From positions 1 to 64,000 of IMG/VR virus record IMGVR_UViG_3300044732_000293: a stretch of 64,000 bases of DNA; one strand, written 5' to 3'. Positions 6,401-19,100 of this stretch are shown here, in pieces. The stretch comes from a virus. Positions within the stretch are counted from its first letter, which is position 1. The number at the start of each line of letters is the position of its first letter. A model generated the notes under the pieces. It had not been told where the DNA came from. It saw nothing but the letters and a program-made list of their open reading frames with translations, and searched no databases. A program made the position numbers and the translations under genes.

Positions 6401-8064
6401 CTTCTCCTAGTGGAACTTCTGTAAATAATACAAATCCGCAAAATAACTGGACTGCTACATATCCTACATTAATGGGATGGAATGGGTCTGGTACATATGG
6501 TGTAAGAGTAGATTCAGCAAGAGTAGCTGATAGTTCTGGTTCAGCTAGCTCTGTTCCTTGGACAGGAGTGTCAGCAGGAAGAAGAACTAACTATGATCTT
6601 GAGTTTCAACCTGCCGTTAATAATTATGCAGGATTTGCTTTCTTTGGTACTAACAGTTCTAATGCAGGATATTTTCTTATAAGAGGTGGAGCAGATAATG
6701 ATGTTTATACTGAAAATGGAATTACTTTAGTAGCTGATCAAGGTTGGTTAACTTTAGCTCAAAGAACTACTGCTAGTAAGGGTGTTAGAATTATGACAGG
6801 TTCTAGCACTTCTGCTACAAGAATATCAATTACAGATTCTTATAGTACTTTTAGTAATAATATTAAATTTGCAGGGTCTACTAACAATGCTTACTTAGGT
6901 AGTAGTGATTGGGGTTTTAGAGTAACTAATGATAACGGATATATCCAATTTGGTCCTGCTAATAATTCTTGGTCTCATATATATTCAGATAAGTCTTTTT
7001 ACTTTAACCAAGAGTTATATGTAAATGGTCAACAAGTAATTCATTCAGGAAACATAGGTTCACAATCTGTAAGTAATGCAACTACTGTTGGTAGTGTAGG
7101 TATTGGAAATATTGTTAGAAAAGATACGACAGGTCAATATCTTAGAGCTTATTATCAATATGGTAGTTATTTAACTTCTGAAACTCCTCAGAATTTAGTA
7201 GATCAAGGTATACAAGGTGGAGGACTAAGAGTTGATTTTATGCACCCTAGTTATACAGGTAGTGGTGGTTGGAATCATGTTATAACATGGTCTGGTTATA
7301 ATGGTTATAATATGTATCAACTTGGAGGACATTATGACGGTGGTACTGGAACTGATCTTTGGGTAAGGTCTGAAGCAAATCATGGTCTAAGTTCTTGGAC
7401 ATCTTGGAGAAGACTATTAAATAGTTCAAATTATTCTTCCTATGCTTTACCTTTAAGTGGAGGTACTATGTCTGGACCTATAAGAAGAAGTGGTCATGCT
7501 TCTACTTTTTTTGAAGGTTCTTATAATAATGTTGGAGGAAACTCTGATAAAACTAATCCAATATATACTATTGGTAGTGCTTATAATCCATCAGATAGTT
7601 CATTAGGAAGTATGTATGGTATTGGTTATGCCCATCCTAATTTATGGGGATCTGGAAAAACTAATGGTTGGGGGATGTATGTTTGTAGTGCTGGTGTAAT
7701 AGATGTAACAATTGGTGGAGATGGTGGATCTACATCAATATGGGCTAAAACAGATATAGTAGCGTATTCAGATGCTAGAGTAAAAGAAAATGTAGAAGTA
7801 ATAGAAAATGCTTTAGAAAAAGTTCAGGCTATACGTGGTGTTACTTTTACCAGAAATGATGTAAAAGATAAAACAAAACGTAGTACAGGAGTAATAGCTC
7901 AGGAAGTATTAACTGTTTTACCAGAAGTGGTTAGTGGTACAGAAGAAGATATGTATTCTGTAGCTTATGGAAATATGGCAGGTTTATTCATTGAGGCTAT
8001 CAAAGAACTTAAAGCAGAGAACGATGCTTTAAAAGAAATATTAAAACGTAATAATATTATATAA
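3469..8064 (+). CDS. Long tail fibre 1 with C-terminal intramolecular chaperone (Peptidase_S74-like), 1531 aa
   Basis: G/S/T-rich; APGTLDTLNELAAALGDDPNFATT fibre motif; YSDARVKENV autocleavage site followed by GVIAQEV and a terminal coiled coil. Confidence 0.9.
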   Translation: MKFLSDILAKAGLTVDGVVTLNNTATGQTPDANDNSTKLATTAWVRTFVQPYSLPIASASVLGGIKVGAGLSINPSTGVLSASAAGISTRDICTFIATAGQTTFSCSYTVDQVDVFYNGSKLGASEFTASNGTTVVLNTACKVGDYLEIVSWVAGAGLSSSRTITINGVTYDLTANRSWSALPVGGVAGDILAKVDGTDYNATWIPNYTSQVQHYVKLSATMTAGTAVYVSGSTGGSGTNMIVSKASNASEATSSKTLGLLKTGGVTNDEVFVVTEGLLAGLDTSTANAGDPVWLGTNGGLIFGLLNKPTAPAHLVFIGVVTRVQSNNGEIFVKVQNGFELDELHNLSVASPSDGDMIKYVASTGLWTKIAASTTNIVEGTNLYYTTARANTDFDTRLATKSTTNLAEGTNLYYTDTRVGTYLTNNSYATQTYVNTAVSNLVDAAPGTLDTLNELAAALGDDPNFATTVATSIGTKVPNTRTITINGTAYDLSADRSWTINSMVYPGAGIAVSTGSAWGTSITNNSTNWNTAYGWGNHASAGYLTGITSSQVTTALGFTPYNNTNPSGYISSYTETDTLASVTARGASTSTRTTFTEVGATREGSDSVAVGPWFRWTNVAESRQMLTQLNASFGLTTWAYNGSAWLSAMTLTQGGVLSTSASINAGDSITLQGELYFGSANSNRYFRLVKSGTAESAGVLNYQFYTGSSWVTKSTLNNSGNVTYAGTLTTSGTITSNGGAAHSIAATSSQRYIIQALNTSNSINSVYGWWWFHNTNGDMGFHADGVGDILNITRGGGATINGNTILTAGNYSSYSLPLSGGTMSGTPIFTAAWSNASGDYTGITNPAYKVDVTSGYWRVVYKGAHSSVSGVYNFETGKNVYWGEPTDTGDYIFRGRTMKWAASNGSEYVLLHANNYNSYSPTLTGVGASGTWSITATGNVVSRGTSWNDGTVIGNTVGMLAWKNYGNGHVIFDASQSTSPSGTSVNNTNPQNNWTATYPTLMGWNGSGTYGVRVDSARVADSSGSASSVPWTGVSAGRRTNYDLEFQPAVNNYAGFAFFGTNSSNAGYFLIRGGADNDVYTENGITLVADQGWLTLAQRTTASKGVRIMTGSSTSATRISITDSYSTFSNNIKFAGSTNNAYLGSSDWGFRVTNDNGYIQFGPANNSWSHIYSDKSFYFNQELYVNGQQVIHSGNIGSQSVSNATTVGSVGIGNIVRKDTTGQYLRAYYQYGSYLTSETPQNLVDQGIQGGGLRVDFMHPSYTGSGGWNHVITWSGYNGYNMYQLGGHYDGGTGTDLWVRSEANHGLSSWTSWRRLLNSSNYSSYALPLSGGTMSGPIRRSGHASTFFEGSYNNVGGNSDKTNPIYTIGSAYNPSDSSLGSMYGIGYAHPNLWGSGKTNGWGMYVCSAGVIDVTIGGDGGSTSIWAKTDIVAYSDARVKENVEVIENALEKVQAIRGVTFTRNDVKDKTKRSTGVIAQEVLTVLPEVVSGTEEDMYSVAYGNMAGLFIEAIKELKAENDALKEILKRNNII

Positions 8065-11000
8065 TGGGTAATACTAGAAATACAGGCTATTTACAGAACA
8101 TCGTATTATATGATGCAAATGATAATATAACATTACCTGCAAGACTTGCTGTTACTGGAACTGTTTCTGTTAATAACACTACTCCTTATGATACTACCCA
8201 GTTTTCATTAGATGTTAATGGTGGATTGATAGTAAAAAATATTAACAAGACTGCTCAGTTTGTTTTAATAAATTCTAATCCAGCTTCTGGTGGTAATAAC
8301 GCATTTGTTGTTCATACCGTTGGTGGAACATCAGCTTCTTCTTATGCAGATATTCAAGGATATTATGGTACATCTATAGCAGGCAGTACTGTTCTTAGAT
8401 TAAACCCACAAGGCGGTAATGTACTTGTAGGGAGTCTTGCCGGAACAGGAAGCAGAATGGTGGTAGCTAGTTCTACAGGAGTTTTATCAACACAAGCTAT
8501 AGTTACATTAGGTGACCTTAGTGGTGTTTCTACTGCTAGAACAATTACAATTAATGGCACTACTCAAGATCTAAGTGCAAATAGAACTTGGACTCTTTAT
8601 ACAGATGATATTTCTGAAGACGGTTCACCTGTAAATCTTTGGTTTACAAATGCTAGAGCTAGAGCTGCAATTAGTGTAACTGGTTCAGGATCATATGATT
8701 CTGCAACAGGTGTAATTACAGTTACAGGAGGTGTAACAGCTGTTAATACAAAAACAGGAGATGTAACATTAACTACTTCTGATATTACTGAAGGAACAAG
8801 ATTATACTATACCGACACAAGAGTTGGAACATATCTTACTAGTAATAGTTATGCAACTCAATCTTATGTAACTACACAGATAGCTAATTTGGTTGATTCA
8901 GCACCAGGAACTCTTGACACACTTAATGAACTTGCTGCAGCTTTAGGAGATGATCCTAACTTTGCTACAAGTGTTGCTACATCTATTGGGACGAAACAAG
9001 CTCAGCTTAATGGCACTGGTTTTGTAAAAATAAGCGGAACCACTATAAGTTATGATAACTCTACCTACTTAACCTCGTTTACTGAGACAGATCCTATATA
9101 TGTAGCTAGTTCATGGTATAGTACAACTAATAACGCCTCTAACTGGAATACTGCATACGGCTGGGGTAATCATGCTAGTGCAGGATATTTAACTACTAGT
9201 TCTGCAGCTAGTACTTATGCTTCTCTTACAGGAGCTTATGCTAATCCAGCTTTTGTAGCATCATTGGCTTATTCTAAATTAACTGGTGTACCAAGTACAT
9301 TTACTCCTTCTTCTCATACTCATGCAATATCTGAAGTCACAGGATTACAAACAGCGTTAGATGGTAAGCAAGCTTCTCTTGGTTTTACTCCTTACAATGC
9401 TACCAATCCTAGTGGTTATATAACCTCTTCATCATTAAGTTCTTATGTACCATACAATGGTGCAACATCCTTACTTAATTTAGGTGTATATGCTATATTT
9501 AGTGGAAATCATTATATAGATACACCTGCTGGTATTGTAATGTTTAAACATGGAGTTGGAACAACTTTAGCAAATTCAGGTTATTCAGGAATTGGTCCAT
9601 CAGGAACAGATGGTATGCAGTTGTCATTCAATGGTACAGCTAACACTATTATATTTAGAAACAATTTACTTTCTACAGGTAGAATTTATTCTTTACCTAA
9701 TGCTTCAGGAACATTAGCATTAACAAGCGATATTCCAACTAACTTAAATCAGTTGACAAATGGACCAGGATATATTACTTCTTATACTGAAACTGATACT
9801 TTAGCTTCTGTTACGGGAAGAGGAGCTTCTACATCAAGTAATGTTACTTTTTCAGGAATAACAAGATTAGGTAGCTCTGGTTATAATACATACATTAATG
9901 GTGGGTTAATGCTTAGAGATTATGGTAATAGCTCATTAACAAATGGTAGGTTTTATTATCAAGATGATGCATGGCATTTTAGAGGTGGTGGTGAAGGAGA
10001 AGCTGATGTAACGTCAGATACTGAAATGTATATTAGAAATGGAAATATTGAAAGATTAGTTATACATGCAGGAAATATTGGTTCTCAATCTGTAAACTAT
10101 GCAAACTCAGCTGGTTCTGCGGGTTCTGCTGGTACTGCAGATAATATAGATGGTTGGAGTTTTGTTAATACAGGAAGCAATAGTGGCACAAATGCTAATA
10201 CTATTGCAAGTAATGGTATTAGTTATGCAACATCAAATGTTAATTTATTTGGACAAACAGATGGAGCTCTTTATTCTCAGGCTTATAATTCAGATTGGCA
10301 ACATCAAATATATGGTGATTATAGAACTGGACAATTGGCGGTTCGTGGTAAGCAATCTGGATCTTGGACTGGATGGAGAACTATAATTGATTCTTCTACT
10401 ATTGGATCTCAGTCTGTATCTTATGCAACTACTGCAGGTTCTGCTGGTTCAGCATTTGGTATGGGTTATGATGGTAATGCTATATCTGGAATGGGGCCTA
10501 TATCAACATGGGATTCTAGACCTGGTGTTGGTATGGCTGGTTTTGGTATTAGCTGGCATACTGGTGTATCTATTTCAGGATATCCAGGATATGGTGGTGT
10601 AAGACTTTATTCAGCAGGGTATCCTACACATGCTTCTTCAGTATTAAGACTTGAGGCTTCTACAGCCGTTTATACATTTGGTGGGTTATACTCAGATGGT
10701 AATGCTGTTATACATGCTGGTAATATTAGTTCTCAACCAGTAGTTACAATTCAAGATGCTCCACCATCTGGTTCTGCAGGTAGATTATGGTGGGAAAGTG
10801 ATACTGGTAAATTAAAAGTTTACTATGGTAGTGCTTGGGTTGATGCTACTCCTATTCCAGATTCATCTCTTTTCTTTGCTAAAGCAGGAGGATCTATTAC
10901 TGGAGATGTATCAATTGGACAAACTCTTAACGTAGTAGGAAACACACTTGTTCAAGGTAACATTAATGCGTTTGGTGATATAACAGCTTATAGTAGTTCA

Positions 11001-11294
11001 GATGCTAGATTAAAAGATAACATTACTGTTATTGAATCACCACTTGAAAAATTATCTAAAATAAACGGTGTATCATTTAACTGGAATGATAAACAATCTG
11101 TATATGAAGTAGGTGCAAAAGACTATGGGGTTATTGCACAAGAAGTTGAAGAAGTATTACCTGAACTTGTAACTACAAGAGATAATGGATATAAAGCTGT
11201 ACGTTATGAAAAAATAGTATCTTTGTTAATAGAAGCAATTAAAGAGCAACAAACTCAGATTAATAACTTAACTGATAAACTTAACAAGTTATAA
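8064..11294 (+). CDS. Long tail fibre 2 with S74-like chaperone, 1076 aa
   Basis: Same fibre modules as fibre 1; SSDARLKDNI...GVIAQEVEEVLPELV C-terminus. Confidence 0.9.
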   Translation: MGNTRNTGYLQNIVLYDANDNITLPARLAVTGTVSVNNTTPYDTTQFSLDVNGGLIVKNINKTAQFVLINSNPASGGNNAFVVHTVGGTSASSYADIQGYYGTSIAGSTVLRLNPQGGNVLVGSLAGTGSRMVVASSTGVLSTQAIVTLGDLSGVSTARTITINGTTQDLSANRTWTLYTDDISEDGSPVNLWFTNARARAAISVTGSGSYDSATGVITVTGGVTAVNTKTGDVTLTTSDITEGTRLYYTDTRVGTYLTSNSYATQSYVTTQIANLVDSAPGTLDTLNELAAALGDDPNFATSVATSIGTKQAQLNGTGFVKISGTTISYDNSTYLTSFTETDPIYVASSWYSTTNNASNWNTAYGWGNHASAGYLTTSSAASTYASLTGAYANPAFVASLAYSKLTGVPSTFTPSSHTHAISEVTGLQTALDGKQASLGFTPYNATNPSGYITSSSLSSYVPYNGATSLLNLGVYAIFSGNHYIDTPAGIVMFKHGVGTTLANSGYSGIGPSGTDGMQLSFNGTANTIIFRNNLLSTGRIYSLPNASGTLALTSDIPTNLNQLTNGPGYITSYTETDTLASVTGRGASTSSNVTFSGITRLGSSGYNTYINGGLMLRDYGNSSLTNGRFYYQDDAWHFRGGGEGEADVTSDTEMYIRNGNIERLVIHAGNIGSQSVNYANSAGSAGSAGTADNIDGWSFVNTGSNSGTNANTIASNGISYATSNVNLFGQTDGALYSQAYNSDWQHQIYGDYRTGQLAVRGKQSGSWTGWRTIIDSSTIGSQSVSYATTAGSAGSAFGMGYDGNAISGMGPISTWDSRPGVGMAGFGISWHTGVSISGYPGYGGVRLYSAGYPTHASSVLRLEASTAVYTFGGLYSDGNAVIHAGNISSQPVVTIQDAPPSGSAGRLWWESDTGKLKVYYGSAWVDATPIPDSSLFFAKAGGSITGDVSIGQTLNVVGNTLVQGNINAFGDITAYSSSDARLKDNITVIESPLEKLSKINGVSFNWNDKQSVYEVGAKDYGVIAQEVEEVLPELVTTRDNGYKAVRYEKIVSLLIEAIKEQQTQINNLTDKLNKL

Positions 11295-11295
11295 G

Positions 11296-12330
11296 ATGGC
11301 AATAAGTTTTCCTTCTTCTCCATCAACAGGTGATCAGTTTCCAGCATCAAACGGAAGAGTTTATCTTTGGGATGGTACTTGGACTACTAAAGCAGATACT
11401 ACAACACCTAATCCTTTTGCAGCTAAGCCGTTTAAGTTTAGATCTATTTACACAAGAGGATATATGGCAGGAGGTTATAAAAATGCATCTCCATGGAAAA
11501 ATCTTAATAGAACTGTACATTCTACAGATATTACAACAAACCTTGGAGATCAGATAGATTATGGTGGTGCATATGTAGATGCGGGTCATAGTGATTATAA
11601 CATGTTTATATATGGTCTTGATGATGCTTTTTCTGGAGCTAGTACACATACATCTTCTATTAGTATGCTTACAGAAGTTAAAAGAACACATGACTCTAGT
11701 TGGAATACTAAAACTACAAGAGATGATGTTGGATGTATAATGAACTCAACATTGACAATGGCTTACATTACAGCCGGGGGATCAACAGCTACAGATAAAC
11801 ATAATTATGTTACAGAAGTAATGTATAATGCTGGATCTGCTCCAGCTGGTCCTACAGCTGGAGATACGTATGGTAACGTAGCAGCGTGGCAAGGAGAGTT
11901 TAAAGGTTGGATTTGGAAAACGGGTCAAGGTGGAAACTTTACGTTTGCTACTGAAACCTGGAGTTCTGGTGGTACGACTGTAGCTACAGATGGATGGGGT
12001 AAAGGATTATCTACTAAGCATGGACATGCTTATGTAAAAAATGGGGGTAACATTGTAACAGGTGCTTATAAGTTAAATGATACTTCTGGTGCTCAAATAA
12101 GAACTGACTTAAACTTTGATAACTCTGGAGAGGAAAATTATCAAACTGGACAAAACTGGGGATACTGTGTTGGTCATTATAACGGTGCTCAAAATAATAA
12201 TACCTATAAGGTACATTCAATAACAGATGTTTATACAGTACTAGGATCTGATTCTCAACCAAAAGGACATGACGGTGCGTCATCCGGAGGGTGTGCGTCA
12301 GCTAGTGCGTTAATTTTAGGAGGACTATAA
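11296..12330 (+). CDS. Kelch-like beta-propeller protein A with N-terminal FPSSPSTG..WDGTW module
   Basis: Repeating aromatic-GG blades (GYMAGGY, AYITAGG); clear paralogue of the next ORF. Confidence 0.55.
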   Translation: MAISFPSSPSTGDQFPASNGRVYLWDGTWTTKADTTTPNPFAAKPFKFRSIYTRGYMAGGYKNASPWKNLNRTVHSTDITTNLGDQIDYGGAYVDAGHSDYNMFIYGLDDAFSGASTHTSSISMLTEVKRTHDSSWNTKTTRDDVGCIMNSTLTMAYITAGGSTATDKHNYVTEVMYNAGSAPAGPTAGDTYGNVAAWQGEFKGWIWKTGQGGNFTFATETWSSGGTTVATDGWGKGLSTKHGHAYVKNGGNIVTGAYKLNDTSGAQIRTDLNFDNSGEENYQTGQNWGYCVGHYNGAQNNNTYKVHSITDVYTVLGSDSQPKGHDGASSGGCASASALILGGL

Positions 12331-12331
12331 T

Positions 12332-13369
12332 ATGGCATTTTCATTTCCATCATCACCAAGTACAGGAACGTTATTTACAGCTCCTAGTGGTGTTATGTAT
12401 GTTTGGGACGGAAGTTGGACAACAATGGGAGACACTCAAGCGTCTAACCCATTCAGTAATAGTTTTTTATATAGATCTATTTATACAAAAGGATACATGA
12501 ATGGTGGATATAAAAATAGTTCTCCTTGGAGGAATGTTAATAAAACTATTCATTCTACAGATATGACAACTAACTTAGGAGATAAGTTAGTTTATAATAG
12601 TAGTTACGTTGGTGGAGGATTTAGTGATTATAATAGTTATATTTATCCTAGTACAGGAGCTGTTGGTGGTGCTGGTACAATTGTAGAATCTATGAACATG
12701 GCTAATGAAACAATGTTTGCATTAGACTCAGCTAGATATTTAAAAACTACACGTAGTGACTGTGAAGCTTTAATGACACCTGCTTTAACAGCTGCATATA
12801 TAGTTGGTGGTGGTACTACTGCAGTTGACAGACATAACTTTACTACAGATATTATGTTTTCTGCAGGAACAGCTCCAGCATCTCCATTAAGTGGAGGTAC
12901 AGGTGGAGGTCTTGGTTCTTTATTTGGTAGATTTAAAGCTTGGATTTCTCAAGGTGCAGGATCATCATTTACTTGGGCTACAGAAACATGGGCTACAGGA
13001 GGAATGAGCTGGGCAACAGATGGTCAACCTAAAGGTTTATCTAGTAAACATGGTCATGGTTATGGTGGAGTAGGTAGTTATCCCGGTTCTTCTTATGTTT
13101 ATAAGTTTAGTGAAGCAACAGGTTCAAATCTTGCTACAGTTAATAGAGCTAAAAATAATGGTGAAGAAAACTGGCAGATAGGTCAAAACTGGGGATATAT
13201 GCTTGGGGCATATGATTCATCACCTCTTGGTCAGAATAATGATGCTGAAAGAATTAATTATTTAACTGATACATACACACAATTAGGTAGTGACACTCAA
13301 CCAAAAGGTCATGATGGGGCATCCTCAGGATCTTGTGCTACAGGTTCAGCAGCATTTGTTGGTTACTAA
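12332..13369 (+). CDS. Kelch-like beta-propeller protein B (paralogue of A)
   Basis: Shares RSIYT.GYM.GGYKN.SPW, KGLS.KHGH, GEEN.Q.GQNWGY and QPKGHDGASSG with 11296-12330. Confidence 0.55.
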   Translation: MAFSFPSSPSTGTLFTAPSGVMYVWDGSWTTMGDTQASNPFSNSFLYRSIYTKGYMNGGYKNSSPWRNVNKTIHSTDMTTNLGDKLVYNSSYVGGGFSDYNSYIYPSTGAVGGAGTIVESMNMANETMFALDSARYLKTTRSDCEALMTPALTAAYIVGGGTTAVDRHNFTTDIMFSAGTAPASPLSGGTGGGLGSLFGRFKAWISQGAGSSFTWATETWATGGMSWATDGQPKGLSSKHGHGYGGVGSYPGSSYVYKFSEATGSNLATVNRAKNNGEENWQIGQNWGYMLGAYDSSPLGQNNDAERINYLTDTYTQLGSDTQPKGHDGASSGSCATGSAAFVGY

Positions 13370-13389
13370 TTAATATATTTGTACATTTG
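13355..13389 (+). promoter_or_regulatory. Bacteroidota-type promoter (TTTG ... TATATTTG/TACATTTG)
   Basis: TTTG at 13355-13358 and tandem TAnnTTTG at 13374-13381 and 13382-13389, upstream of the ATG at 13416. Confidence 0.55.
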
Positions 13390-13415
13390 TAAAAATGTAT
13401 TTAAACTAATATAGA

Positions 13416-13958
13416 ATGAAATATTTTATTGTAAGATTTTATAAAGAAGTTCCTCAAATTACAGGAATGACTTCTATTGGTTGGCTTGACTCATATGGTA
13501 TTTTTTCTGCTACTGCTGAAGCAGAAGCTGAATTACTTACTTTAAATCTTAGTATGGAAGAACTTACTGAAGATGAAGCTTTAATTGGATCTAAATTTTA
13601 TAGTATTTCAAGAGAGTTTCGTAAAGCTTATTCTGCAGTAGAAGGACTAGAGCCAGATGAAGAAGGTGGTTCTAAAACTAAGGTTTATCATACAGACCAT
13701 ACTAAAGCCGTTACTCTTAGCTTAATGAAGAAGATTGCTAAGCGTAGAGTTGTAGATGAGTTTAATCGTAGAGAAAATCAAACTGGTAAAGAAAGTATTC
13801 TTACTTCTATTGATGCTGCTGCTACTATTTGGGACTTAAATATTCTTAGAGAAGATTTATTAGGTGTAGAAATGCCTTTATATCAAGCTCAAGAAATGGG
13901 ATTGCTTAATGAAAATGGTATACGTATTGTACCTGTTGATTATAGTAAAGGATTTTAA
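13416..13958 (+). CDS. Hypothetical acidic protein, possibly an assembly chaperone
   Basis: 180-aa ORF; the function is inferred from context only. Confidence 0.45.
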   Translation: MKYFIVRFYKEVPQITGMTSIGWLDSYGIFSATAEAEAELLTLNLSMEELTEDEALIGSKFYSISREFRKAYSAVEGLEPDEEGGSKTKVYHTDHTKAVTLSLMKKIAKRRVVDEFNRRENQTGKESILTSIDAAATIWDLNILREDLLGVEMPLYQAQEMGLLNENGIRIVPVDYSKGF

Positions 13959-13979
13959 TTAATAACAAAAAACCAATTT

Positions 13980-14849
13980 ATGAGAAAAGTGAAGATGCTA
14001 CTAGCAGCTTTATTTGTTACTGTATTGTCATTTGGTCAATATAGTAACAGTGCAATTAGACAAGGAACTGAAGAAGCTCTTAAGTCTCAGGATACAACTA
14101 AAAATGAGTTACAAGCTATAGTTGTAATTGCAAAGAAGGTACCGTTGATGACTAAGGTGGGTCCTTACAATCAACCTCTTTGGACAACAATTAGAATGTT
14201 TCCATCTACTAGAGTTTATGTAATGAACCCTCCAGGTACTGCAATGTATGAGAAGTGGTTTGATGTTAGACAGAGAAGAAATGGTGCAGCTCAAATTAGA
14301 ATGAGAGATGAATTTACATTTGGTTTAGGTAAAAGACTTCAATTAGATCTTTATTCTCATACAGTGTATGATGGTTTAAATGGAGATAAGACTTTTAAAT
14401 GGAGAGGATTTTCTTGGGAGTTTAGATATGCTTTAGCTGACTGGGGTAAGATTTGGGGTAACCCAACTCTTTACTATGAGATGAAAATGTTAGATGGTCG
14501 TTGGGGCATTGAACCTAAATTATTACTAGGTGATAAGATTGGTAAAAAAGGAGTATGGGGATTTAATGCTATTTATGAAGGTAATTTAGCTAGCACTAAA
14601 GAAGAGCAGGAAAGAGAATATGCTTATACAGCATCTTATGCTAATATAATTAATAATGATTTGTCTCTTGGTGTATCACATATGTTTAGATATAATGACT
14701 ATGAGGGTGGTTCAGAAGAGTGGTATGTTGGTCCGTTAGTTCAATATCGTTTTAGTAACAAAGGTTATTTAAACATTGAGCATATGCCAGGTCTTAACCA
14801 AGATGCAAAACAATCAAGAACTTTAATTATTTTTGGCTGGAGATTTTAA
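13980..14849 (+). CDS. Outer-membrane beta-barrel protein with signal peptide
   Basis: Sec signal peptide (MRKVKMLLAALFVTVLSFG/Q), alternating amphipathic beta strands rich in aromatics, and a C-terminal ...LIIFGWRF BAM-type signal. Confidence 0.75.
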   Translation: MRKVKMLLAALFVTVLSFGQYSNSAIRQGTEEALKSQDTTKNELQAIVVIAKKVPLMTKVGPYNQPLWTTIRMFPSTRVYVMNPPGTAMYEKWFDVRQRRNGAAQIRMRDEFTFGLGKRLQLDLYSHTVYDGLNGDKTFKWRGFSWEFRYALADWGKIWGNPTLYYEMKMLDGRWGIEPKLLLGDKIGKKGVWGFNAIYEGNLASTKEEQEREYAYTASYANIINNDLSLGVSHMFRYNDYEGGSEEWYVGPLVQYRFSNKGYLNIEHMPGLNQDAKQSRTLIIFGWRF

Positions 14850-14860
14850 ATAAAACAACA

Positions 14861-15574
14861 ATGGAAAAACAAGACGTTATAAAACTAGCAGAAAGTCATG
14901 GTGGATGGAGTATGAGTGATTTTCAAAGTAGATACTTTGTAGTTAATTCACAAGTAACTGATTATCGTAGAGTTAGACAAGCTTTACTAGAAATTGAAAC
15001 ACGTATTGCTGCTAAGAAACAAATTATCCGTGATACTAAAAGATCACAGGTTAAACTAAAGATTAAAGAAAAAGAGCTTGTAGCTCAATTAGATGATCTT
15101 GAAAAAGAACTTATTCTTTTAGACATAGATCAACTTCAGTATGATATTTCTGTATATGAAAAGAAGTTAAGAATTGTAGAAGAAGAGCTTGACGAGTTTG
15201 CAAAACTTGTTGTTGAGATTGTTCCTACTATAGAAGAGTTAGAGACATATAAAGAACATAATGATGAGCTTGAAAGAGAGTATTGGATTTCCCGTATGGC
15301 AAAACAAGCTAGTGTAGATATGATAACCACTGGAAGAATTGGTGCTGGTAATTTAGACTCAATTGCTATGATGGCATCACAAGATCAAGTTTTAACTATT
15401 GGTTCTGCTTTGTTAAACTCAAAGAAGCTTACTGCAGGTATTAATAAGATTGAACAAGCTCTTGATACTAATACCAGTCTTCTTGAAAGTAGTTTTTCTG
15501 GATTGTTTGAGAAGAGTGATTTTGTTAAACTGTTATCTGAAAAAAAGGAAAAAACGGATGGCCAAGATATTTAG
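14861..15574 (+). CDS. Coiled-coil protein, 237 aa
   Basis: Long heptad-like E/K/L-rich helix in the central part; overlaps the start of the U32 gene by 17 nt. Confidence 0.6.
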   Translation: MEKQDVIKLAESHGGWSMSDFQSRYFVVNSQVTDYRRVRQALLEIETRIAAKKQIIRDTKRSQVKLKIKEKELVAQLDDLEKELILLDIDQLQYDISVYEKKLRIVEEELDEFAKLVVEIVPTIEELETYKEHNDELEREYWISRMAKQASVDMITTGRIGAGNLDSIAMMASQDQVLTIGSALLNSKKLTAGINKIEQALDTNTSLLESSFSGLFEKSDFVKLLSEKKEKTDGQDI

Positions 15575-17168
15575 TCTACCAATCAATCCTAAGTTATCTG
15601 AAAAACAGTTTATAGAGTTTGTAGAGTTTTGTGACAAGTATAAAGACTATATTTCAGATCTATACTTTACATGTAGAGTTCCTCCATTTACACAAGATGC
15701 TATGGGTGATCTTTTTACTTCTAAGGATGATCCTCAGTATATGATTGATGTAGCACTTTATATTCAAGAAAGAACAGGAATAACAGCTTCTGCTACTTTT
15801 AATAATATATCGGTTAGACCAACACAGGAAAATTTAGATCTTTGGATTGAATCTTTTAAACCTATATATACTAAAGGAGTTAGATTATGTACACTACCTT
15901 TTAATCATTGGTTGTTAACTGGTCAGATTCAAAAAGAGTTTCCAGAGTTAGAAGTTAGAGCTTCTATATTGATGGATACAAAGACAGCCACAGATGCTTA
16001 TAATGTAGTGACAAGTGGTTTTCATTCTGTATGTATTGATAGAGCTCTAATGAGAGATCAAGATACTATAAAGAAGATAGTTAAGATAAAACGTAAAAAA
16101 CCTTTTAAACTTGTATTATTAGCTAATGAAGGTTGTTTAGGTAAATGTCCAGTGATGTCTGAGCATTACCATTATAATAATACTAGAACAACTGATAGTC
16201 AGTATTTTAACAATCCTATTAGTAGAGTGTCATGTCCAATGTGGGATGTTACTAATAAAGCGGTTGTATTAAAAACTGCAGATATCCCAGCTTGGAAAGA
16301 AGACTGGGATGAGTTTCTTGATATGGGAGTAGATATCTTTAAGATGCATGGTAGAGAAAACGTTAAGAAGATATATGATTCCATGAATATTGTCAGAAAC
16401 TACGCAGAGAATAAGACTATGTTATATGACATAAATCTTAAGATTAGTGAAGACAATGCTGCTAAGTGGAGGAAGATTATTAAAACCTGTCAGTTTGAAT
16501 GTTGGAGTTGTAACTTCTGTGATAGAATAGCTGGTGGTGAGTTAGATAAAAAAGCAGTTAGTGTTGCAAATATTCTAGTTGATAGCGTTAACTCAGATTT
16601 TGAAACAACAGTTCCAGGATTATCTAGTCCTAGAATTGATAAGCTTTTAAATGAACTTGGTAAAATATCAACAGGCTATTTAGAAATTGGTTGTCTTGGT
16701 GGTAGAACTTTTTCTAGTACTATTGCTGGTAATAAGTTAAATGCGTATGCTGTAGATAACTGGAAAGAAGGAGTAGCTGCAGAGAATAACTCTATTGATA
16801 TAACTGTTACCAAAGAAGACTTTGTTAAGAATATTCTACCATATAAAGGAGAGAATAAAATCAAAGTGTTTAACTGTGACTATATTGATGTAGATAAAAC
16901 CAATATTAAAGATATAGATTTATTTCTATATGATGGAGATCACTCACATAATAGTACAAGACTTGCAGTAGAGTATTTTGCAGACACATTTGCAGAAGAA
17001 TGTATTTTAGTTTTTGATGATGCTAATTGGGAAGGTGTAGTAAGTGGTGCTCTTGCAGGTATAGAAAAAGCTGGTTTAACTATTCAGTATGAGAAAAAAC
17101 TATTGAATAGTATAGAGGATAAAGATATGTGGTGGAATGGATTGTATATAGTGGTTGTTAAAAAGTAA
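15558..17168 (+). CDS. Peptidase-U32-family (Fe-S hydroxylase-like) domain fused to a class I SAM methyltransferase (Methyltransf_24-like)
   Basis: The likely start is the ATG at 15558 (MAKIFSLP), not 15450. U32-like motifs: LANEGCLGKCP..H, SCP, VDIFKMHGRE, plus CQFECWSCNFC. C-terminal MTase motifs: YLEIGCLGG, AVDNW, YDGDHS, VFDDANW. Confidence 0.75.
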   Translation: MAKIFSLPINPKLSEKQFIEFVEFCDKYKDYISDLYFTCRVPPFTQDAMGDLFTSKDDPQYMIDVALYIQERTGITASATFNNISVRPTQENLDLWIESFKPIYTKGVRLCTLPFNHWLLTGQIQKEFPELEVRASILMDTKTATDAYNVVTSGFHSVCIDRALMRDQDTIKKIVKIKRKKPFKLVLLANEGCLGKCPVMSEHYHYNNTRTTDSQYFNNPISRVSCPMWDVTNKAVVLKTADIPAWKEDWDEFLDMGVDIFKMHGRENVKKIYDSMNIVRNYAENKTMLYDINLKISEDNAAKWRKIIKTCQFECWSCNFCDRIAGGELDKKAVSVANILVDSVNSDFETTVPGLSSPRIDKLLNELGKISTGYLEIGCLGGRTFSSTIAGNKLNAYAVDNWKEGVAAENNSIDITVTKEDFVKNILPYKGENKIKVFNCDYIDVDKTNIKDIDLFLYDGDHSHNSTRLAVEYFADTFAEECILVFDDANWEGVVSGALAGIEKAGLTIQYEKKLLNSIEDKDMWWNGLYIVVVKK

Positions 17169-17170
17169 TT

Positions 17171-18043
17171 ATGGAAGTATTAATTAAATTATTAGATGGT
17201 ATATGGTTTGTCCCTTTTGTGGCAGGTATTATGTTTTTAACTAATATAATTAATGCCAAGGGATACTTTGTACCGTTTTATAAGTTTTTGGAAAAGAAGA
17301 TAAAGTCTAAAAGATTACTGATTGCTTTAATTAGTGCAGTGTCTGGAGTACTTCCAGTTCCAGGTAGAGTTATAATTAGTGCAGGGGCACTTGATACGTT
17401 AGCACCAAATGATGATAGAAAAAAGAAGTATGGTATAATAAACTATCTATCTACTCATCATTATTATCTCTGGTCTCCATTGGAAGCTACGGTATTAATT
17501 CCACTTTCTGTATTAGGTATAAGTTACTTTTACTTATTATCTATAGTTGCTCCTTTGCTAATAACTATTATTGGGATTACACTATATTACATATTTTATG
17601 TTCTTAAAGAAGATGATATTGTAATAAGTAAAATAGAGCATAAAAAAGATAAGACTATAAAAAATATAAAGTGGGATGTGGTAATGCTGACAGCTTTGGT
17701 TATTATTCTAGGCAATGGAATAAAGATGTACTCAGATACTATTGTAAACTTTCTTATGTCTTTTAATAGTGGTGTGTTTTTTGCATCTATTATAGCTTTT
17801 ATAAGCAGTTTTGTTTTAGGATCTAGTAGTAAGTTTGCAGGAATAACTACATTGTTAGTTACAGTTTTTGGTCTGAATTACTTACCACTATTTTTTGCAT
17901 TAGGTTATTCTGGTTATTTAGTAAGTCCAATGCACAAATGTTTGGTAATTACAAAAAGTTACTTTAACTTAAGTATAGAGCTATATAAGATCCTACTTCT
18001 TATAGGGGCAGTTTTAGTTACAGTAGGATATTTGTTAGTATAA
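17171..18043 (+). CDS. Polytopic inner-membrane permease, DUF401 / IT-superfamily-like
   Basis: About 8-9 hydrophobic segments; SGVLPVPG, THHYYLWSPLE and GYLVSPMHKCLV..SYF resemble DUF401 signatures. Confidence 0.65.
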   Translation: MEVLIKLLDGIWFVPFVAGIMFLTNIINAKGYFVPFYKFLEKKIKSKRLLIALISAVSGVLPVPGRVIISAGALDTLAPNDDRKKKYGIINYLSTHHYYLWSPLEATVLIPLSVLGISYFYLLSIVAPLLITIIGITLYYIFYVLKEDDIVISKIEHKKDKTIKNIKWDVVMLTALVIILGNGIKMYSDTIVNFLMSFNSGVFFASIIAFISSFVLGSSSKFAGITTLLVTVFGLNYLPLFFALGYSGYLVSPMHKCLVITKSYFNLSIELYKILLLIGAVLVTVGYLLV

Positions 18044-18054
18044 AATTTTAATTA

Positions 18055-18900
18055 ATGCCATTACAATCATCAGGTGCTATAAGCATCAGTCAAATAAGAA
18101 CAGAACTAGGATCTAGTTCATATAGTCTTAGAACACTATCTGCGGCTGCTGGTAAATCTACACCAGATGCTATGAGTGAGTTTTATGGGTATAGTAATGT
18201 ATCATGGCCTAGTGGTATGACAGCTAGATATGATGTTGCTAACTATACAGGTAGTACAATACCTGACTCAACAGGCAATGGATATACTATGTCAGTATCA
18301 GGAGTAACTTATGTTTCAAACGGTGGTAATCCGTATATACAAACAGCTATTGGTTCTTCTAATCAATCTATTACTGGTAACTCTTCTTTATATGGATCTG
18401 ATTTTACTTGGTGTACAGCATTAGCTATAACAGGATCAAACGGTGACTGGGGTAGTTTCTGGTGGTCAGAAGCTGGATCTAAAAACTTTTTATCTGCTCA
18501 CTATGCTCCAAACTGGAACCAAACAAGTTCATGGTTTCCAAGATTTGACACAGCAAGTGCGTCATACGTTCCTTGGAACAGTGGTATGGGTACAACTAAC
18601 AACGGTACTAGTCCAGTTAGTGCATCTGCAGATTATATATCAACAAGTCCTATGCATTTGTTAACTATTAGAAAAAGTGGTAATACTCTTACATGGTGGG
18701 ATAACACTACTTGTATTTGGACTTTTACAGGGTTTAGTACATTTAGTATTGGTGCACCTAATCAGGAGGTAGGATTTTTAAACAGAAATGGCGGTGGTTA
18801 TGTAACTCCAGCTAAATGGAGATTTATGGGAATGTTTAATAGAGCATTATCTGATGCTGAAATCGGTACTGTACAAACTTTAATGACATCTTATTCTTAA
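18055..18900 (+). CDS. Fibre-tip adhesin with ConA/LamG-like domain
   Basis: N-terminal MPLQSSGAISISQIRTELG...MSEFYG motif typical of fibre-tip proteins; C-terminal LamG-like ...FNRALSDAEI. Confidence 0.7.
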   Translation: MPLQSSGAISISQIRTELGSSSYSLRTLSAAAGKSTPDAMSEFYGYSNVSWPSGMTARYDVANYTGSTIPDSTGNGYTMSVSGVTYVSNGGNPYIQTAIGSSNQSITGNSSLYGSDFTWCTALAITGSNGDWGSFWWSEAGSKNFLSAHYAPNWNQTSSWFPRFDTASASYVPWNSGMGTTNNGTSPVSASADYISTSPMHLLTIRKSGNTLTWWDNTTCIWTFTGFSTFSIGAPNQEVGFLNRNGGGYVTPAKWRFMGMFNRALSDAEIGTVQTLMTSYS

Positions 18901-18918
18901 CTATAACATTATATTATT

Positions 18919-19080
18919 ATGACTTACTCTTTTAATTTTAATTTAAAACTATTTATTAAGTATATCTTAGTTGTTTTATTTTCTTTAATGATAGTAAAAT
19001 TATTAACTTTTACTCCTGGTAAAATGATTATTACTAATCCAATTCACAGGATCTCAGCTGATTCTGTAAACGCATTCTAA
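18919..19080 (+). CDS. Small single-pass membrane protein, 53 aa (below the ORF-track cutoff)
   Basis: ATG at 18919 to TAA at 19080 fills the gap between adjacent genes; hydrophobic stretch YILVVLFSLMIVKLLTF. Confidence 0.5.
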   Translation: MTYSFNFNLKLFIKYILVVLFSLMIVKLLTFTPGKMIITNPIHRISADSVNAF

Positions 19081-19100
19081 TATAATATAAATACTTTTTA

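What the first reader, a model, noticed from the sequence alone, without database searches (positions are those of the whole stretch)
11296..18043. Seven-gene cassette in the tail-fibre locus: OM beta-barrel, DUF401-like permease, U32 Fe-S enzyme/methyltransferase and twin propellers
Seen: between fibre 2 and a typical fibre-tip adhesin gene (18055) sit tightly coupled genes for two paralogous Kelch-like propellers, a 180-aa protein, a signal-peptide OM barrel, a coiled coil, a U32-MTase fusion and an inner-membrane permease. A host-type promoter lies at 13355-13389. Established: characterised U32 proteins (RlhA, TrhP, UbiU/UbiV) are Fe-S, O2-independent hydroxylases rather than proteases; DUF401 proteins are uncharacterised transporter-like membrane proteins. 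Inference: a phage-encoded two-membrane import route plus a cytoplasmic modifying enzyme. It could supply a metal or cofactor to mature or decorate the fibre-borne propellers, or it could remodel the host surface for superinfection exclusion. An uptake-plus-modification module embedded among fibre genes is not a system I can name.
Basis: partly seen in the sequence, partly recalled or inferred. Interest (0 to 1): 0.88.

Follow-up and report, generated by a model that had tools for sequence, protein, structure and literature searches.

The report
Phage fibre-locus tailoring-and-transport gene cassette
Between the tail-fibre genes of this uncultured phage lies a real gene block, shared by hundreds of phages but never studied, that joins propeller-shaped fibre proteins to an iron-sulfur-type enzyme fused to a methyltransferase and to an outer-membrane channel plus inner-membrane transporter; it probably decorates an aromatic ring, but its target is unknown.

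Summary
Seven tightly packed genes lie at 11296-18043. They encode two Kelch-fold propellers, a 180-aa protein, a signal-peptide outer-membrane barrel, a helical protein, a U32-fold domain fused to an O-methyltransferase, and a DUF401-type permease.

The U32 call holds only at fold level (Mk0906, Z 17.5). No Pfam U32 match exists, and the cysteine pattern differs.

Linkage is strong. Where flanks suffice, propeller and helical protein accompany the enzyme in 61/61 IMG/VR loci, and the permease in 41/63.

Three results appear in none of the earlier notes retrieved:
- The barrel is a regular cassette member in a large jumbo-phage lineage. Its stop overlaps the permease start in over 40 loci.
- In four contigs the radical-SAM/U32/methyltransferase slot is instead filled by a tryptophan-halogenase-family flavoenzyme. 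One further contig carries both.
- A cellular homologue sits beside an unrelated O-methyltransferase.

Together these point to tailoring of an electron-rich aromatic ring, linked to transport across the envelope. The target, the direction of transport and any link to the propellers remain inference.

The scan has flagged this cassette at least ten times on other DNA, with the same open question.

The parts
3469..8064 (+). Tail fibre 1 (context). It has a C-terminal intramolecular chaperone domain.
   Evidence: Pfam Peptidase_S74 E 1.3e-14 at residues 1434-1488.
8064..11294 (+). Tail fibre 2 (context). Its stop lies 1 nt before propeller A.
   Evidence: Pfam Peptidase_S74 E 1.5e-17; ORF table.
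11296..12330 (+). Propeller A: a six-bladed Kelch-like beta-propeller with a short N-terminal segment of about 45 aa and no signal peptide.
   Evidence: phrog_1417 E 3.9e-88. Model pLDDT 85.5. Foldseek hits to Kelch domains, E about 1e-14, TM about 0.8. No Pfam hit.
12332..13369 (+). Propeller B, a paralogue of A (53% identity).
   Evidence: phrog_1417 E 3.4e-61; alignment A3.
13355..13389 (+). Promoter-like string TTTG-N23-TACATTTG in the only gap of the cassette longer than 21 nt.
   Evidence: Sequence read directly. The pattern count is not above chance. That this is the Bacteroidota -33/-7 consensus is from memory.
13416..13958 (+). p180: a helper protein of unknown fold. Its family is present in 78 of 78 loci centred on the helical protein.
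   Evidence: phrog_1604 E 4.4e-14, C-terminal part only. HMM survey. No relative in the PDB.
13980..14849 (+). Outer-membrane beta-barrel candidate with a signal peptide and a C-terminal ...GWRF.
   Evidence: Pfam Phenol_MetA_deg E 0.009, below cut-off. At least 1455 homologues. Sits inside the same cassette in 44-47 of 50 barrel-centred loci. The fold itself was not modelled.
14861..15574 (+). cc: a helical or coiled-coil protein with a conserved C-terminal motif. It is the only component found in every variant of the cassette.
   Evidence: phrog_1409 E 1.6e-57. Invariant Q40, E44, R48, W142, G158 and G163 across RP12, the halogenase variant, cyanophages and this window.
15558..17168 (+). Enzyme. 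It consists of a U32-fold TIM barrel (residues 1-273), a Cys-rich segment with CX3CX2CX2C (312-322), and a cation-dependent-type O-methyltransferase domain (346-537).
   Evidence: phrog_1458 E 4.5e-133. Model pLDDT 93.2. VIA-align: 5d88 Z 17.5; O-methyltransferases Z 14-16.6. Seven invariant Cys. Pfam PF13578.
17171..18043 (+). Inner-membrane DUF401-type (ion-transporter superfamily) permease. It starts 2 nt after the enzyme's stop.
   Evidence: Pfam DUF401 E 4.8e-10. TIGR00529 E 5e-13, far below its equivalog cut-off. About 7-8 hydrophobic segments. Atlas score 0.97 to viral DUF401 clusters.
18055..18900 (+).
   Evidence: No hit in Pfam, PHROGs, NCBIfam or PADLOC. An ORF of similar size (277 aa) follows the permease in the near relative L159, but it was not compared with this protein.

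Best explanation
This is one copy of a mobile, late-type phage gene cassette.

**Core and options.** The constant core is one to three Kelch-fold propeller proteins encoded directly behind fibre genes, two helper proteins (p180 and the helical cc protein), and an enzyme that adds a substituent to an electron-rich aromatic ring. The optional part is a translationally coupled outer-membrane barrel plus inner-membrane DUF401-type permease.

**Proposed mechanism (inferred, not shown).**
1. The Fe-S-type U32-like domain hydroxylates an aromatic or heteroaromatic carbon, as the characterised U32 proteins do.
2. The fused cation-dependent-type O-methyltransferase caps the new hydroxyl, giving a methoxy group.
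3. In variant cassettes a flavin-dependent tryptophan-halogenase homologue does the equivalent electrophilic substitution.
4. The barrel/permease pair carries the small aromatic substrate or product across the two membranes; the direction is unknown.
5. The most likely substrate is a small indole- or phenol-type metabolite. A Trp or Tyr side chain of a cassette protein is the close second.

**Shown:** the folds, the linkage, the barrel-permease coupling and the enzyme swap. **Inferred:** the chemistry, the substrate, and the link between the transporter and the enzyme.
For: **Folds.**
- The best structural match of the N-domain is the U32 protein Mk0906 (Z 17.5). The next TIM barrel scores Z 13.2 with rmsd 5.3.
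- The C-domain has the O-methyltransferase fold, with TrmR among the hits (Z 14.8), and matches Pfam PF13578.
- Seven Cys are invariant over 34 diverse relatives.

**Linkage.**
- With enough flanking sequence, the enzyme is accompanied by a propeller in 61/61 loci, cc in 61/61, p180 in 55/61 and the permease in 41/63.
- Of 78 cc-centred loci, p180 is present in 78 and the propeller in 71.
- The cassette is also present in 126 isolated phages: T4-like cyanophages and Ralstonia jumbo phages.

**Transporter pair.** Barrel and permease are adjacent in 42 or 43 of 44 loci holding both, typically overlapping by 13 nt.

**Aromatic target.**
- In the contigs behind L108, L109, L138 and L150, the slot between p180 and the membrane-protein genes holds a Trp_halogenase-family protein instead of the U32-like enzyme and methyltransferase. 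Its scores are PF04820 E 4e-105, E 1e-80 to solved tryptophan halogenases, and 4e-69 to the cyanophage enzyme VirX1.
- The FDH motifs GxGxxG, WxWx[IT]P and EPxEST are visible in that protein.
- No U32-like gene was found on the 65-83 kb held for these contigs, while the positive controls matched.
- L165 carries the U32-methyltransferase fusion and also a halogenase homologue and a 2OG oxygenase.

**Independent pairing with O-methylation.** In the cellular locus L089 the U32-like domain stands alone, followed by a solute-binding protein and an O-methyltransferase of a different family, PF00891.

**Established knowledge (from memory).** TrhP-to-TrmR and UbiU/UbiV-to-UbiG are both hydroxylation followed by O-methylation.
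Against: - No activity, cofactor or substrate has been shown for any member.
- No Pfam U32 match exists for any of 65 relatives.
- Profile-profile homology to E. coli UbiU/UbiV/TrhP/RlhA is weak: 34% probability, E 4e-4, 109 columns, ending before the Cys region. The Cys spacing differs from U32.
- The halogenase variant is rare: four contigs in two lineages. Those contigs are only 19-25% complete, so a U32-like gene elsewhere in the genome is not excluded.
- In Syn9, halogenases lie in the same post-fibre island without any cassette gene. Co-location may therefore partly reflect a hypervariable island.
- Accessory genes seen in some loci fit protein or peptide maturation as well as they fit a small molecule: radical SAM, subtilase S8, Asp/Asn hydroxylase-like.
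- The permease and barrel are dispensable in most cyanophages.
- The barrel's similarity to a phenol-pathway outer-membrane family is below threshold.
Confidence: 0.4

Rival explanations
1. Protein maturation. The enzymes modify a Trp or Tyr side chain of a cassette protein, either a propeller or the universal cc protein. This would tune a virion fibre appendage or create a protein-derived cofactor. The membrane proteins would then be a separate add-on.
For: - The propeller and cc accompany the enzyme in 61/61 loci with enough flank.
- cc is the only component in every variant and has one invariant Trp, W142. The propellers have invariant Y61, W67 and Y93.
- Some lineages add a radical SAM enzyme, a subtilase or an Asp/Asn-hydroxylase-like oxygenase. 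These are typical of peptide or protein maturation.
- The cassette sits in the structural gene block, behind fibres carrying S74 chaperone domains.
Against: - No characterised U32 protein acts on a protein (from memory).
- The halogenase homologue is closest to free-tryptophan halogenases, E 1e-80 over its full length.
- RP12 has cc, the U32-like domain and the permease but no propeller within 9 kb.
- The enzyme-permease and barrel-permease coupling is left unexplained.
- Invariant aromatic residues can be purely structural.
Confidence: 0.3
2. Host-envelope remodelling. The enzyme alters a membrane-bound aromatic or glycan component of the host, such as a quinone, lipid or surface polysaccharide. 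The barrel and permease act in the envelope, for example to block superinfection or to stop progeny binding to debris.
For: - UbiU/UbiV act on membrane quinone precursors (from memory).
- Stand-alone cellular homologues lie beside a UDP-GlcNAc 2-epimerase, a GT1 glycosyltransferase and an NTP-transferase/UpxY-like gene.
- A relative of the methyltransferase domain is fused to a glycosyltransferase (P0251).
- Barrel-type phages carry glycan genes next to the cassette.
- Sugar O-methyltransferases are among the top fold matches.
Against: - The neighbourhoods come from only five cellular loci and are heterogeneous.
- The glycan genes in the phages are on the opposite strand, outside the cassette.
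- Carriers are lytic-type phages (T4-like, jumbo).
- This reading gives no role to the propellers.
- The halogenase swap is hard to fit to a glycan target.
Confidence: 0.13
3. Nucleic-acid modification. This would be a TrhP/TrmR-like pathway making 5-methoxyuridine in tRNA, or a hydroxylated and methylated base in rRNA or phage DNA.
For: - TrhP (U32) followed by TrmR (O-methyltransferase) is the closest characterised two-step logic.
- TrmR structures are among the fold matches, Z 14.8 and 14.1.
- JGI names relatives 'O-methyltransferase YrrM'.
Against: - TrmR is not distinguished from other O-methyltransferases, which score up to Z 16.6.
- The protein lacks the C-terminal domain of the RNA-acting U32 enzymes (E. 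coli TrhP and RlhA are 453 and 653 aa).
- Constant linkage to fibre-side propellers, a permease and an outer-membrane barrel has no place in an RNA pathway.
- A tryptophan-halogenase swap is not expected for a nucleic-acid target.
Confidence: 0.07
4. No common function. The genes are independent passengers of a hypervariable island behind the fibre gene. Their order reflects shared ancestry, not a shared task.
For: - In cyanophages the region between syntenic flanks holds different cargo. Syn9 carries two halogenases and 2OG oxygenases there instead of the cassette.
- The permease and barrel are optional.
Against:
- Identity is as low as 25-50% while order, 1-2 nt spacing or overlaps are kept.
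- The gene set persists through fusion and fission of the enzyme.
Confidence: 0.05

Closest known systems
U32 family Fe-S proteins (UbiU/UbiV, TrhP/YegQ, RlhA/YdcP; solved fold Mk0906, PDB 5d88)
   Same: The TIM-barrel fold is the best structural match, Z 17.5 over 225 residues. A weak in-register profile match covers barrel strands 3-6. Invariant cysteines follow the equivalent strand, so an Fe-S cluster is plausible.
   Different: No Pfam PF01136 hit for 65 relatives. The Cys pattern is C-x3-C...C plus an extra CX3CX2CX2C, rather than the U32 four-Cys motif. There is no U32 C-terminal domain. It is fused to a methyltransferase. It is almost entirely viral and linked to fibre genes.
TrhP then TrmR (tRNA U34 to ho5U to mo5U), and UbiU/V then UbiG
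   Same: A U32-type hydroxylation step paired with an O-methyltransferase. Here the two are fused, split into adjacent genes, or paired with an O-methyltransferase of another family (L089).
   Different: The substrate is unknown. The gene context (propellers, helper proteins, transporter pair) has no counterpart in these pathways.
Flavin-dependent tryptophan halogenases, including the cyanophage enzyme VirX1 (PDB 6qgm)
   Same: A close homologue (E 1e-80 to solved Trp halogenases, 4e-69 to VirX1) occupies the enzyme slot in variant cassettes. VirX1 is a characterised viral halogenase for which the review's table lists no natural product (PMC8407142).
   Different: This window has no halogenase. 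In Syn9 (NC_008296; Syn10 scored identically in the search) the halogenase genes lie in the same post-fibre island but without cassette genes.
DUF401 / TIGR00529 membrane proteins (ion-transporter superfamily)
   Same: The Pfam match is above cut-off. The protein is polytopic. The nearest Atlas clusters are DUF401, one of which also carries CitMHS.
   Different: It is shorter (290 aa against about 390) and matches in two pieces. It falls far below the TIGR00529 equivalog cut-off. The family itself is uncharacterised. It was found only as weak, partial hits in 9 of 401 sampled Bacteroidota genomes.
Phenol_MetA_deg-type outer-membrane barrels (PF13557)
   Same: A signal peptide, a C-terminal aromatic residue and a weak match to the C-terminal half of the model. 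One homologue carries the Pfam hit (P0397).
   Different: The score is below cut-off and the fold was not modelled here. The family is phage-borne: only 25-28% identical hits in 5 of 401 sampled Bacteroidota genomes.

Membership tests
Peptidase U32 family (PF01136) | Sequence match to the family model | tested here: not met
   No PF01136 hit at E <= 0.1 for the window protein, nor at E <= 0.01 for any of 65 relatives. No relative in the PDB by sequence.
Peptidase U32 family (PF01136) | U32-type TIM-barrel fold | tested here: met
   Mk0906 (5d88) is the top hit: Z 17.5, rmsd 3.1, 225 of 247 residues aligned. The next TIM barrel scores Z 13.2 with rmsd 5.3. Foldseek gives E 2e-7.
Peptidase U32 family (PF01136) | Profile-level homology to characterised members (UbiU, UbiV, TrhP, RlhA) | tested here: inconclusive
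   hhalign probability 34%, E 4e-4, 109 columns in register (phage residues 63-180 to UbiU 46-157).
Peptidase U32 family (PF01136) | Four conserved Cys binding a 4Fe-4S cluster | tested here: inconclusive
   C194, C198 and C227 are invariant after the equivalent strand, but with different spacing. A further invariant CX3CX2CX2C lies at 312-322. In the four E. coli proteins only C176 and C193 are invariant. The geometry could not be measured because no coordinates were available.
Peptidase U32 family (PF01136) | O2-independent, prephenate-dependent hydroxylation | not testable with these tools
   This needs biochemistry. No chorismate mutase gene is on this phage record.
Cation-dependent class I O-methyltransferases (Methyltransf_24 / COMT-TrmR type) | Sequence and fold of the SAM-dependent O-methyltransferase domain | tested here: met
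   PF13578 scores 32.7 bits against a cut-off of 26.3. Fold Z is 14-16.6 to O-methyltransferases, including TrmR 5zw3.
Cation-dependent class I O-methyltransferases (Methyltransf_24 / COMT-TrmR type) | Asp/Asp/Asn metal-binding triad | not tested
   D460, D488, D489 and N491 are invariant in close relatives. Their equivalence to the triad is inferred, not checked by superposition.
DUF401 (PF04165) / TIGR00529 | Match to the family model over its length | tested here: inconclusive
   Pfam 39.8 bits exceeds the cut-off of 24, but the match comes in two partial stretches. TIGR00529 scores 49 bits against a cut-off of 378. The Atlas score is 0.97 to viral DUF401 clusters.
Phenol_MetA_deg outer-membrane barrel (PF13557) | Match to the family model | tested here: not met
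   16.5 bits against a cut-off of 22, covering the C-terminal half only.
Phenol_MetA_deg outer-membrane barrel (PF13557) | Outer-membrane beta-barrel fold | not tested
Only sequence features support a barrel: signal peptide, alternating hydrophobicity and a terminal Phe.
Kelch-repeat beta-propellers | Six-bladed propeller with Kelch-type blades | tested here: met
   Foldseek TM about 0.8, rmsd about 3.1, to the Kelch domains of KLHL17, Keap1 and KLHL12.
Kelch-repeat beta-propellers | Kelch sequence motif (Pfam Kelch models) | tested here: not met
   No Pfam family at E <= 0.1.

The most novel reading that the evidence does not exclude
The cassette is a self-contained phage system that makes, or takes up and tailors, a small methoxylated or halogenated indole- or phenol-type molecule. 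It moves that molecule across both host membranes. The molecule is the ligand or cofactor of the fibre-borne Kelch propellers. This would be a phage-supplied 'adsorption cofactor' that switches or tunes fibre function, recalling the classical tryptophan requirement of some T4 strains for fibre deployment (from memory).
Probability: 0.12. Interest if true: 0.9.

Novelty: new variant of a known kind. Interest (0 to 1): 0.66.

Why it matters
- **Scale.** The enzyme family has at least 1458 representative clusters at 50% identity. The cassette sits in the receptor-recognition region of abundant aquatic phages, including cultured T4-like cyanophages. None of its genes has a known function.
- **A new enzyme branch.** It would add a virus-borne branch to the O2-independent U32 hydroxylase superfamily.
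- **A possible context for viral halogenases.** It may give a natural setting for enzymes such as VirX1, for which the review read here lists no natural product.
- **Phage-encoded transport.** It shows a phage encoding its own outer-membrane channel coupled to an inner-membrane transporter.
- **Testability.** The cassette occurs in cultured phages such as P-HM2, Syn33 and S-RIM12, and genetic engineering of marine cyanophages has been reported (PMC8776855, title and abstract only). The target could therefore be sought by mass spectrometry.

Tried and rejected
**Sequence and fold searches that gave nothing.**
- Sequence routes to U32 failed: Pfam, NCBIfam, PDB by profile.
- The cc and p180 proteins stayed unexplained. 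PDB profile searches gave only chance-level coiled-coil hits. The ESM Atlas score was at most 0.79. The PADLOC hit to JetC is coiled-coil noise.
- The radical SAM protein of relatives has no PDB relative.

**Absent from phage collections or from this record.**
- There is no near-identical DNA in the isolated-phage collection.
- This phage record has no chorismate mutase (self-supplied prephenate) and no halogenase.

**Host origin rejected.** The idea that the barrel and permease were recently taken from a Bacteroidota host was tested on 401 sampled genomes. The barrel gave 5 hits at 25-28% identity. DUF401 gave 9 weak partial hits in ORFs that are mostly 450-480 aa.

**His-motif idea rejected.** The 'KHGH/GHDG' histidines as a family-wide metal site do not hold. 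These His are not among the columns conserved at 90% or more.

- The scan for more halogenase-variant loci chose poor patterns and added only one unrelated locus.

**Literature.** Searches on DUF401, DUF7483, and U32 with phage or tail fibre found nothing on this cassette.

Full report
**1. What is in the window**

The window comes from a 100,841-bp IMG/VR virus record, about 78% complete, with about 33% G+C. According to another first-reader note, it carries a giant virion RNA polymerase gene further downstream.

Positions 3469-22553 form a run of + strand genes. fib1 (3469-8064) and fib2 (8064-11294) end in the Peptidase_S74 intramolecular chaperone domain typical of fibres and spikes.

Seven ORFs then follow with 1-46 nt gaps or overlaps:
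- propA, 11296-12330
- propB, 12332-13369
- p180, 13416-13958
- barrel, 13980-14849
- cc, 14861-15574
- enzyme, 15558-17168 (the ATG at 15558 is the conserved start)
- permease, 17171-18043

A 281-aa protein (18055-18900) and another long fibre-like ORF come next.

**2. Identity of each gene**

*Propellers.* They are 53% identical paralogues of phrog_1417, with no Pfam hit. A model built on 46 relatives (pLDDT 85.5) is a six-bladed Kelch-like propeller: KLHL17, Keap1 and KLHL12, E about 1e-14, TM about 0.8.

*Enzyme.* It belongs to phrog_1458. A model built on 65 relatives has pLDDT 93.2.
- Residues 1-273 match the U32 protein Mk0906 better than any other chain of 48,161 (Z 17.5, rmsd 3.1, 225 residues). 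The next TIM barrel reaches Z 13.2.
- Residues 346-537 have the class I O-methyltransferase fold (Z 14-16.6), with TrmR among many hits. They match Pfam Methyltransf_24 above cut-off.
- By sequence the N-domain is not a U32 member. No PF01136 hit exists for 65 relatives. A profile-profile comparison with E. coli UbiU, UbiV, TrhP and RlhA gives only 34% probability over 109 in-register columns.
- Seven cysteines are invariant over 34 diverse relatives: C194, C198 and C227, plus C312, C316, C319 and C322. One or two metal or Fe-S sites are therefore likely, but the pattern is not the U32 one.

*Permease.* It matches Pfam DUF401 above cut-off in two pieces, has about 7-8 hydrophobic segments, and is nearest to viral DUF401 clusters.

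*Barrel.* It has a signal peptide, no TM helix and a terminal ...GWRF, with a sub-threshold match to Phenol_MetA_deg. Its fold was not modelled.

*cc and p180.* They belong to phrog_1409 and phrog_1604 and have no detectable relatives of known function.

*Promoter-like string.* The string at 13355-13389 is there, but the pattern is not enriched in the window.

**3. Do the genes travel together?**

Yes.
- The enzyme occurs in 126 isolated phages: T4-like cyanophages and three Ralstonia jumbo-phage records.
- In S-H25, S-RIM12 and P-HM2 the order behind the tail-fibre gene is propeller, p180, cc, enzyme, with or without the permease. These are T4-like gene clusters 351-354 in P-HM2.
- In 80 IMG/VR loci centred on the enzyme, counting only loci with enough flank, a propeller is present in 61/61, cc in 61/61, p180 in 55/61, the permease in 41/63 and the barrel in 5/63.
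- In 78 loci centred on cc, p180 is present in 78 and the propeller in 71. The enzyme is present in 65, and most of the loci that lack it end soon after cc.
- Ralstonia phage RP12 keeps only cc, the U32-like domain (no methyltransferase) and the permease. It has no propeller within 9 kb.
- The enzyme also occurs split. Stand-alone N-domains and stand-alone methyltransferases are common among the 1458 representative clusters.

**4. The barrel and permease are a pair**

A scan centred on the barrel gave 50 loci. In 44-47 of them the barrel lies inside the same cassette, in the order: two or three propellers, cc, p180, radical SAM, U32-like domain, methyltransferase (separate genes here), barrel, permease.

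The barrel's stop overlaps the permease's start by 13 nt, for example L096 7980-8861 and 8849-9853. The two are adjacent in 42 or 43 of the 44 loci that hold both.

In the enzyme-centred set the barrel is next to the permease in all six loci that have it, even where the pair lies 5 kb from the enzyme. The window's own order, with cc and the enzyme between barrel and permease, is the exception. It is shared with its near relatives L100/L159 (one contig).

The barrel family has at least 1455 members. Neither it nor DUF401 is common in 401 sampled Bacteroidota genomes. Both look like phage-lineage genes rather than recent host captures.

**5. A swap in the enzyme slot**

In four contigs from two lineages (the halogenases are about 76% identical), the propellers, cc, p180 and permease are kept. 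The barrel is kept in three of the four.

The radical SAM, U32-like and methyltransferase genes are replaced by a 505-aa member of the tryptophan halogenase family. It scores PF04820 E 4e-105, E 1e-80 to solved tryptophan 5-, 6- and 7-halogenases over the full length, and 4e-69 to VirX1.

GxGxxG, a WxWx[IT]P-like motif and EPxEST are visible in it. No U32-like gene was found on the 65-83 kb held for these contigs, although they are only 19-25% complete. Control contigs matched.

A fifth contig (L165) carries the U32-methyltransferase fusion followed by a halogenase homologue (PF04820, E 5e-101) and a 2OG oxygenase.

VirX1 of cyanophage Syn10 is a characterised viral halogenase with an open active site, and the review's table lists no natural product for it (PMC8407142). 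In Syn9 (Syn10 scored identically in the search), two halogenase genes lie in the same post-fibre island between flanks that are syntenic with cassette-bearing cyanophages. No cassette genes are present there.

**6. Cellular homologues**

Stand-alone N-domains occur in a few MAGs.
- In L089 the gene is followed by a family-5 solute-binding protein and an O-methyltransferase of a different family, PF00891.
- In a Bacteroidales chromosome it lies between an AraC-type regulator, a UPF0489 protein and an S41 peptidase.
- A Deltaproteobacteria MAG has three copies, lying beside a B12-radical SAM gene, a UDP-GlcNAc 2-epimerase and a GT1 glycosyltransferase respectively.

The sample is small and mixed. 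The independent pairing with an O-methyltransferase is nevertheless notable.

**7. Reading**

The constant features are a propeller behind a fibre gene, two helper proteins and an enzyme. Three families fill or join the enzyme slot: U32-like, O-methyltransferase and flavin halogenase. What these three share is chemistry on electron-rich aromatic rings.

Both characterised U32 pathways hydroxylate a ring carbon that is then O-methylated (established knowledge, from memory). The fusion, its split forms and the L089 neighbourhood fit 'hydroxylate, then O-methylate'. A coupled outer-membrane channel and inner-membrane secondary transporter argue for a small molecule crossing the envelope.

I therefore favour tailoring of a small indole- or phenol-type compound, with the transporter pair carrying substrate or product (confidence about 0.4).

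The close rival is modification of a Trp or Tyr side chain of the propeller or of cc (about 0.3). cc is the only protein in every variant and has one invariant Trp. This rival is helped by accessory radical SAM, subtilase and Asp/Asn-hydroxylase-like genes in some lineages.

Envelope remodelling, a nucleic-acid target and 'no common function' are less likely, for the reasons given under rivals.

**8.

The cassette and the two-membrane pair are real and linked. Import, a metal or cofactor cargo, decoration of the propellers and superinfection exclusion are all untested. The His motifs behind the metal idea are not conserved.

**9. Novelty**

The scan has noted this cassette on other DNA many times, with the same conclusion that the target is unknown. 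No paper in the held library describes it.

- the barrel-permease coupling;
- the halogenase swap and co-occurrence;
- the finding that cc is universal;
- the cellular pairing with a second O-methyltransferase family.

I rate it a new variant of a known kind (U32-type hydroxylation plus O-methylation) in a setting with no described counterpart.

Noticed in passing
L096:10389-13075 (- strand); L108:10960-13791 (- strand); L153:12228-17215 (- strand): The jumbo-type phages with the barrel-bearing cassette carry a glycan-synthesis gene block on the opposite strand, just downstream. It holds two GT2 glycosyltransferases, an NAD-dependent epimerase/dehydratase, a UDP-galactopyranose mutase, GT1-type transferases and a Methyltransf_24 / rhamnosyl-O-methyltransferase-like gene.
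   Followed up: partly
L188:11292-13121, and the same 607-609 aa ORF in L191, L195, L197, L199, L203, L208, L209, L220, L221: A 609-aa subtilase (Peptidase_S8, E 7.5e-30 for L188) follows the split U32-like and methyltransferase genes in L188. An ORF of the same size and position is seen in nine further loci, which were not themselves scanned.
   Followed up: no
L155 (Synechococcus phage Syn9, NC_008296) 8488-11593: Two tandem tryptophan-halogenase genes and several 2OG oxygenases fill the same post-fibre island that holds the propeller/U32 cassette in S-RIM12 and S-H25. The flanks are syntenic: the fibre is about 80% identical and the small downstream genes are 45-85% identical.
   Followed up: partly
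L150:11281-13083 and L150:14086-14652: In one halogenase-type contig, a 600-aa ORF with no Pfam hit stands where the barrel is in its relatives. An Asp/Asn beta-hydroxylase-family protein follows the permease.
   Followed up: no
P0129 (553 aa, from the representative search): A relative has the U32-like N-domain fused to DUF7483 (E 1.3e-51) instead of the methyltransferase. Another (P0251) fuses a glycosyltransferase-like domain to the methyltransferase domain.
   Followed up: no
window 18919-19080: A 53-aa ORF with one strongly hydrophobic segment lies between the 281-aa protein and the next long fibre-like gene.
   Followed up: no
L086, L087, L090 (one Deltaproteobacteria MAG, 70% G+C): Three paralogous stand-alone U32-like genes lie on three contigs of one genome. 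They sit beside a B12-binding radical SAM gene, a UDP-GlcNAc 2-epimerase and a GT1 glycosyltransferase.
   Followed up: partly
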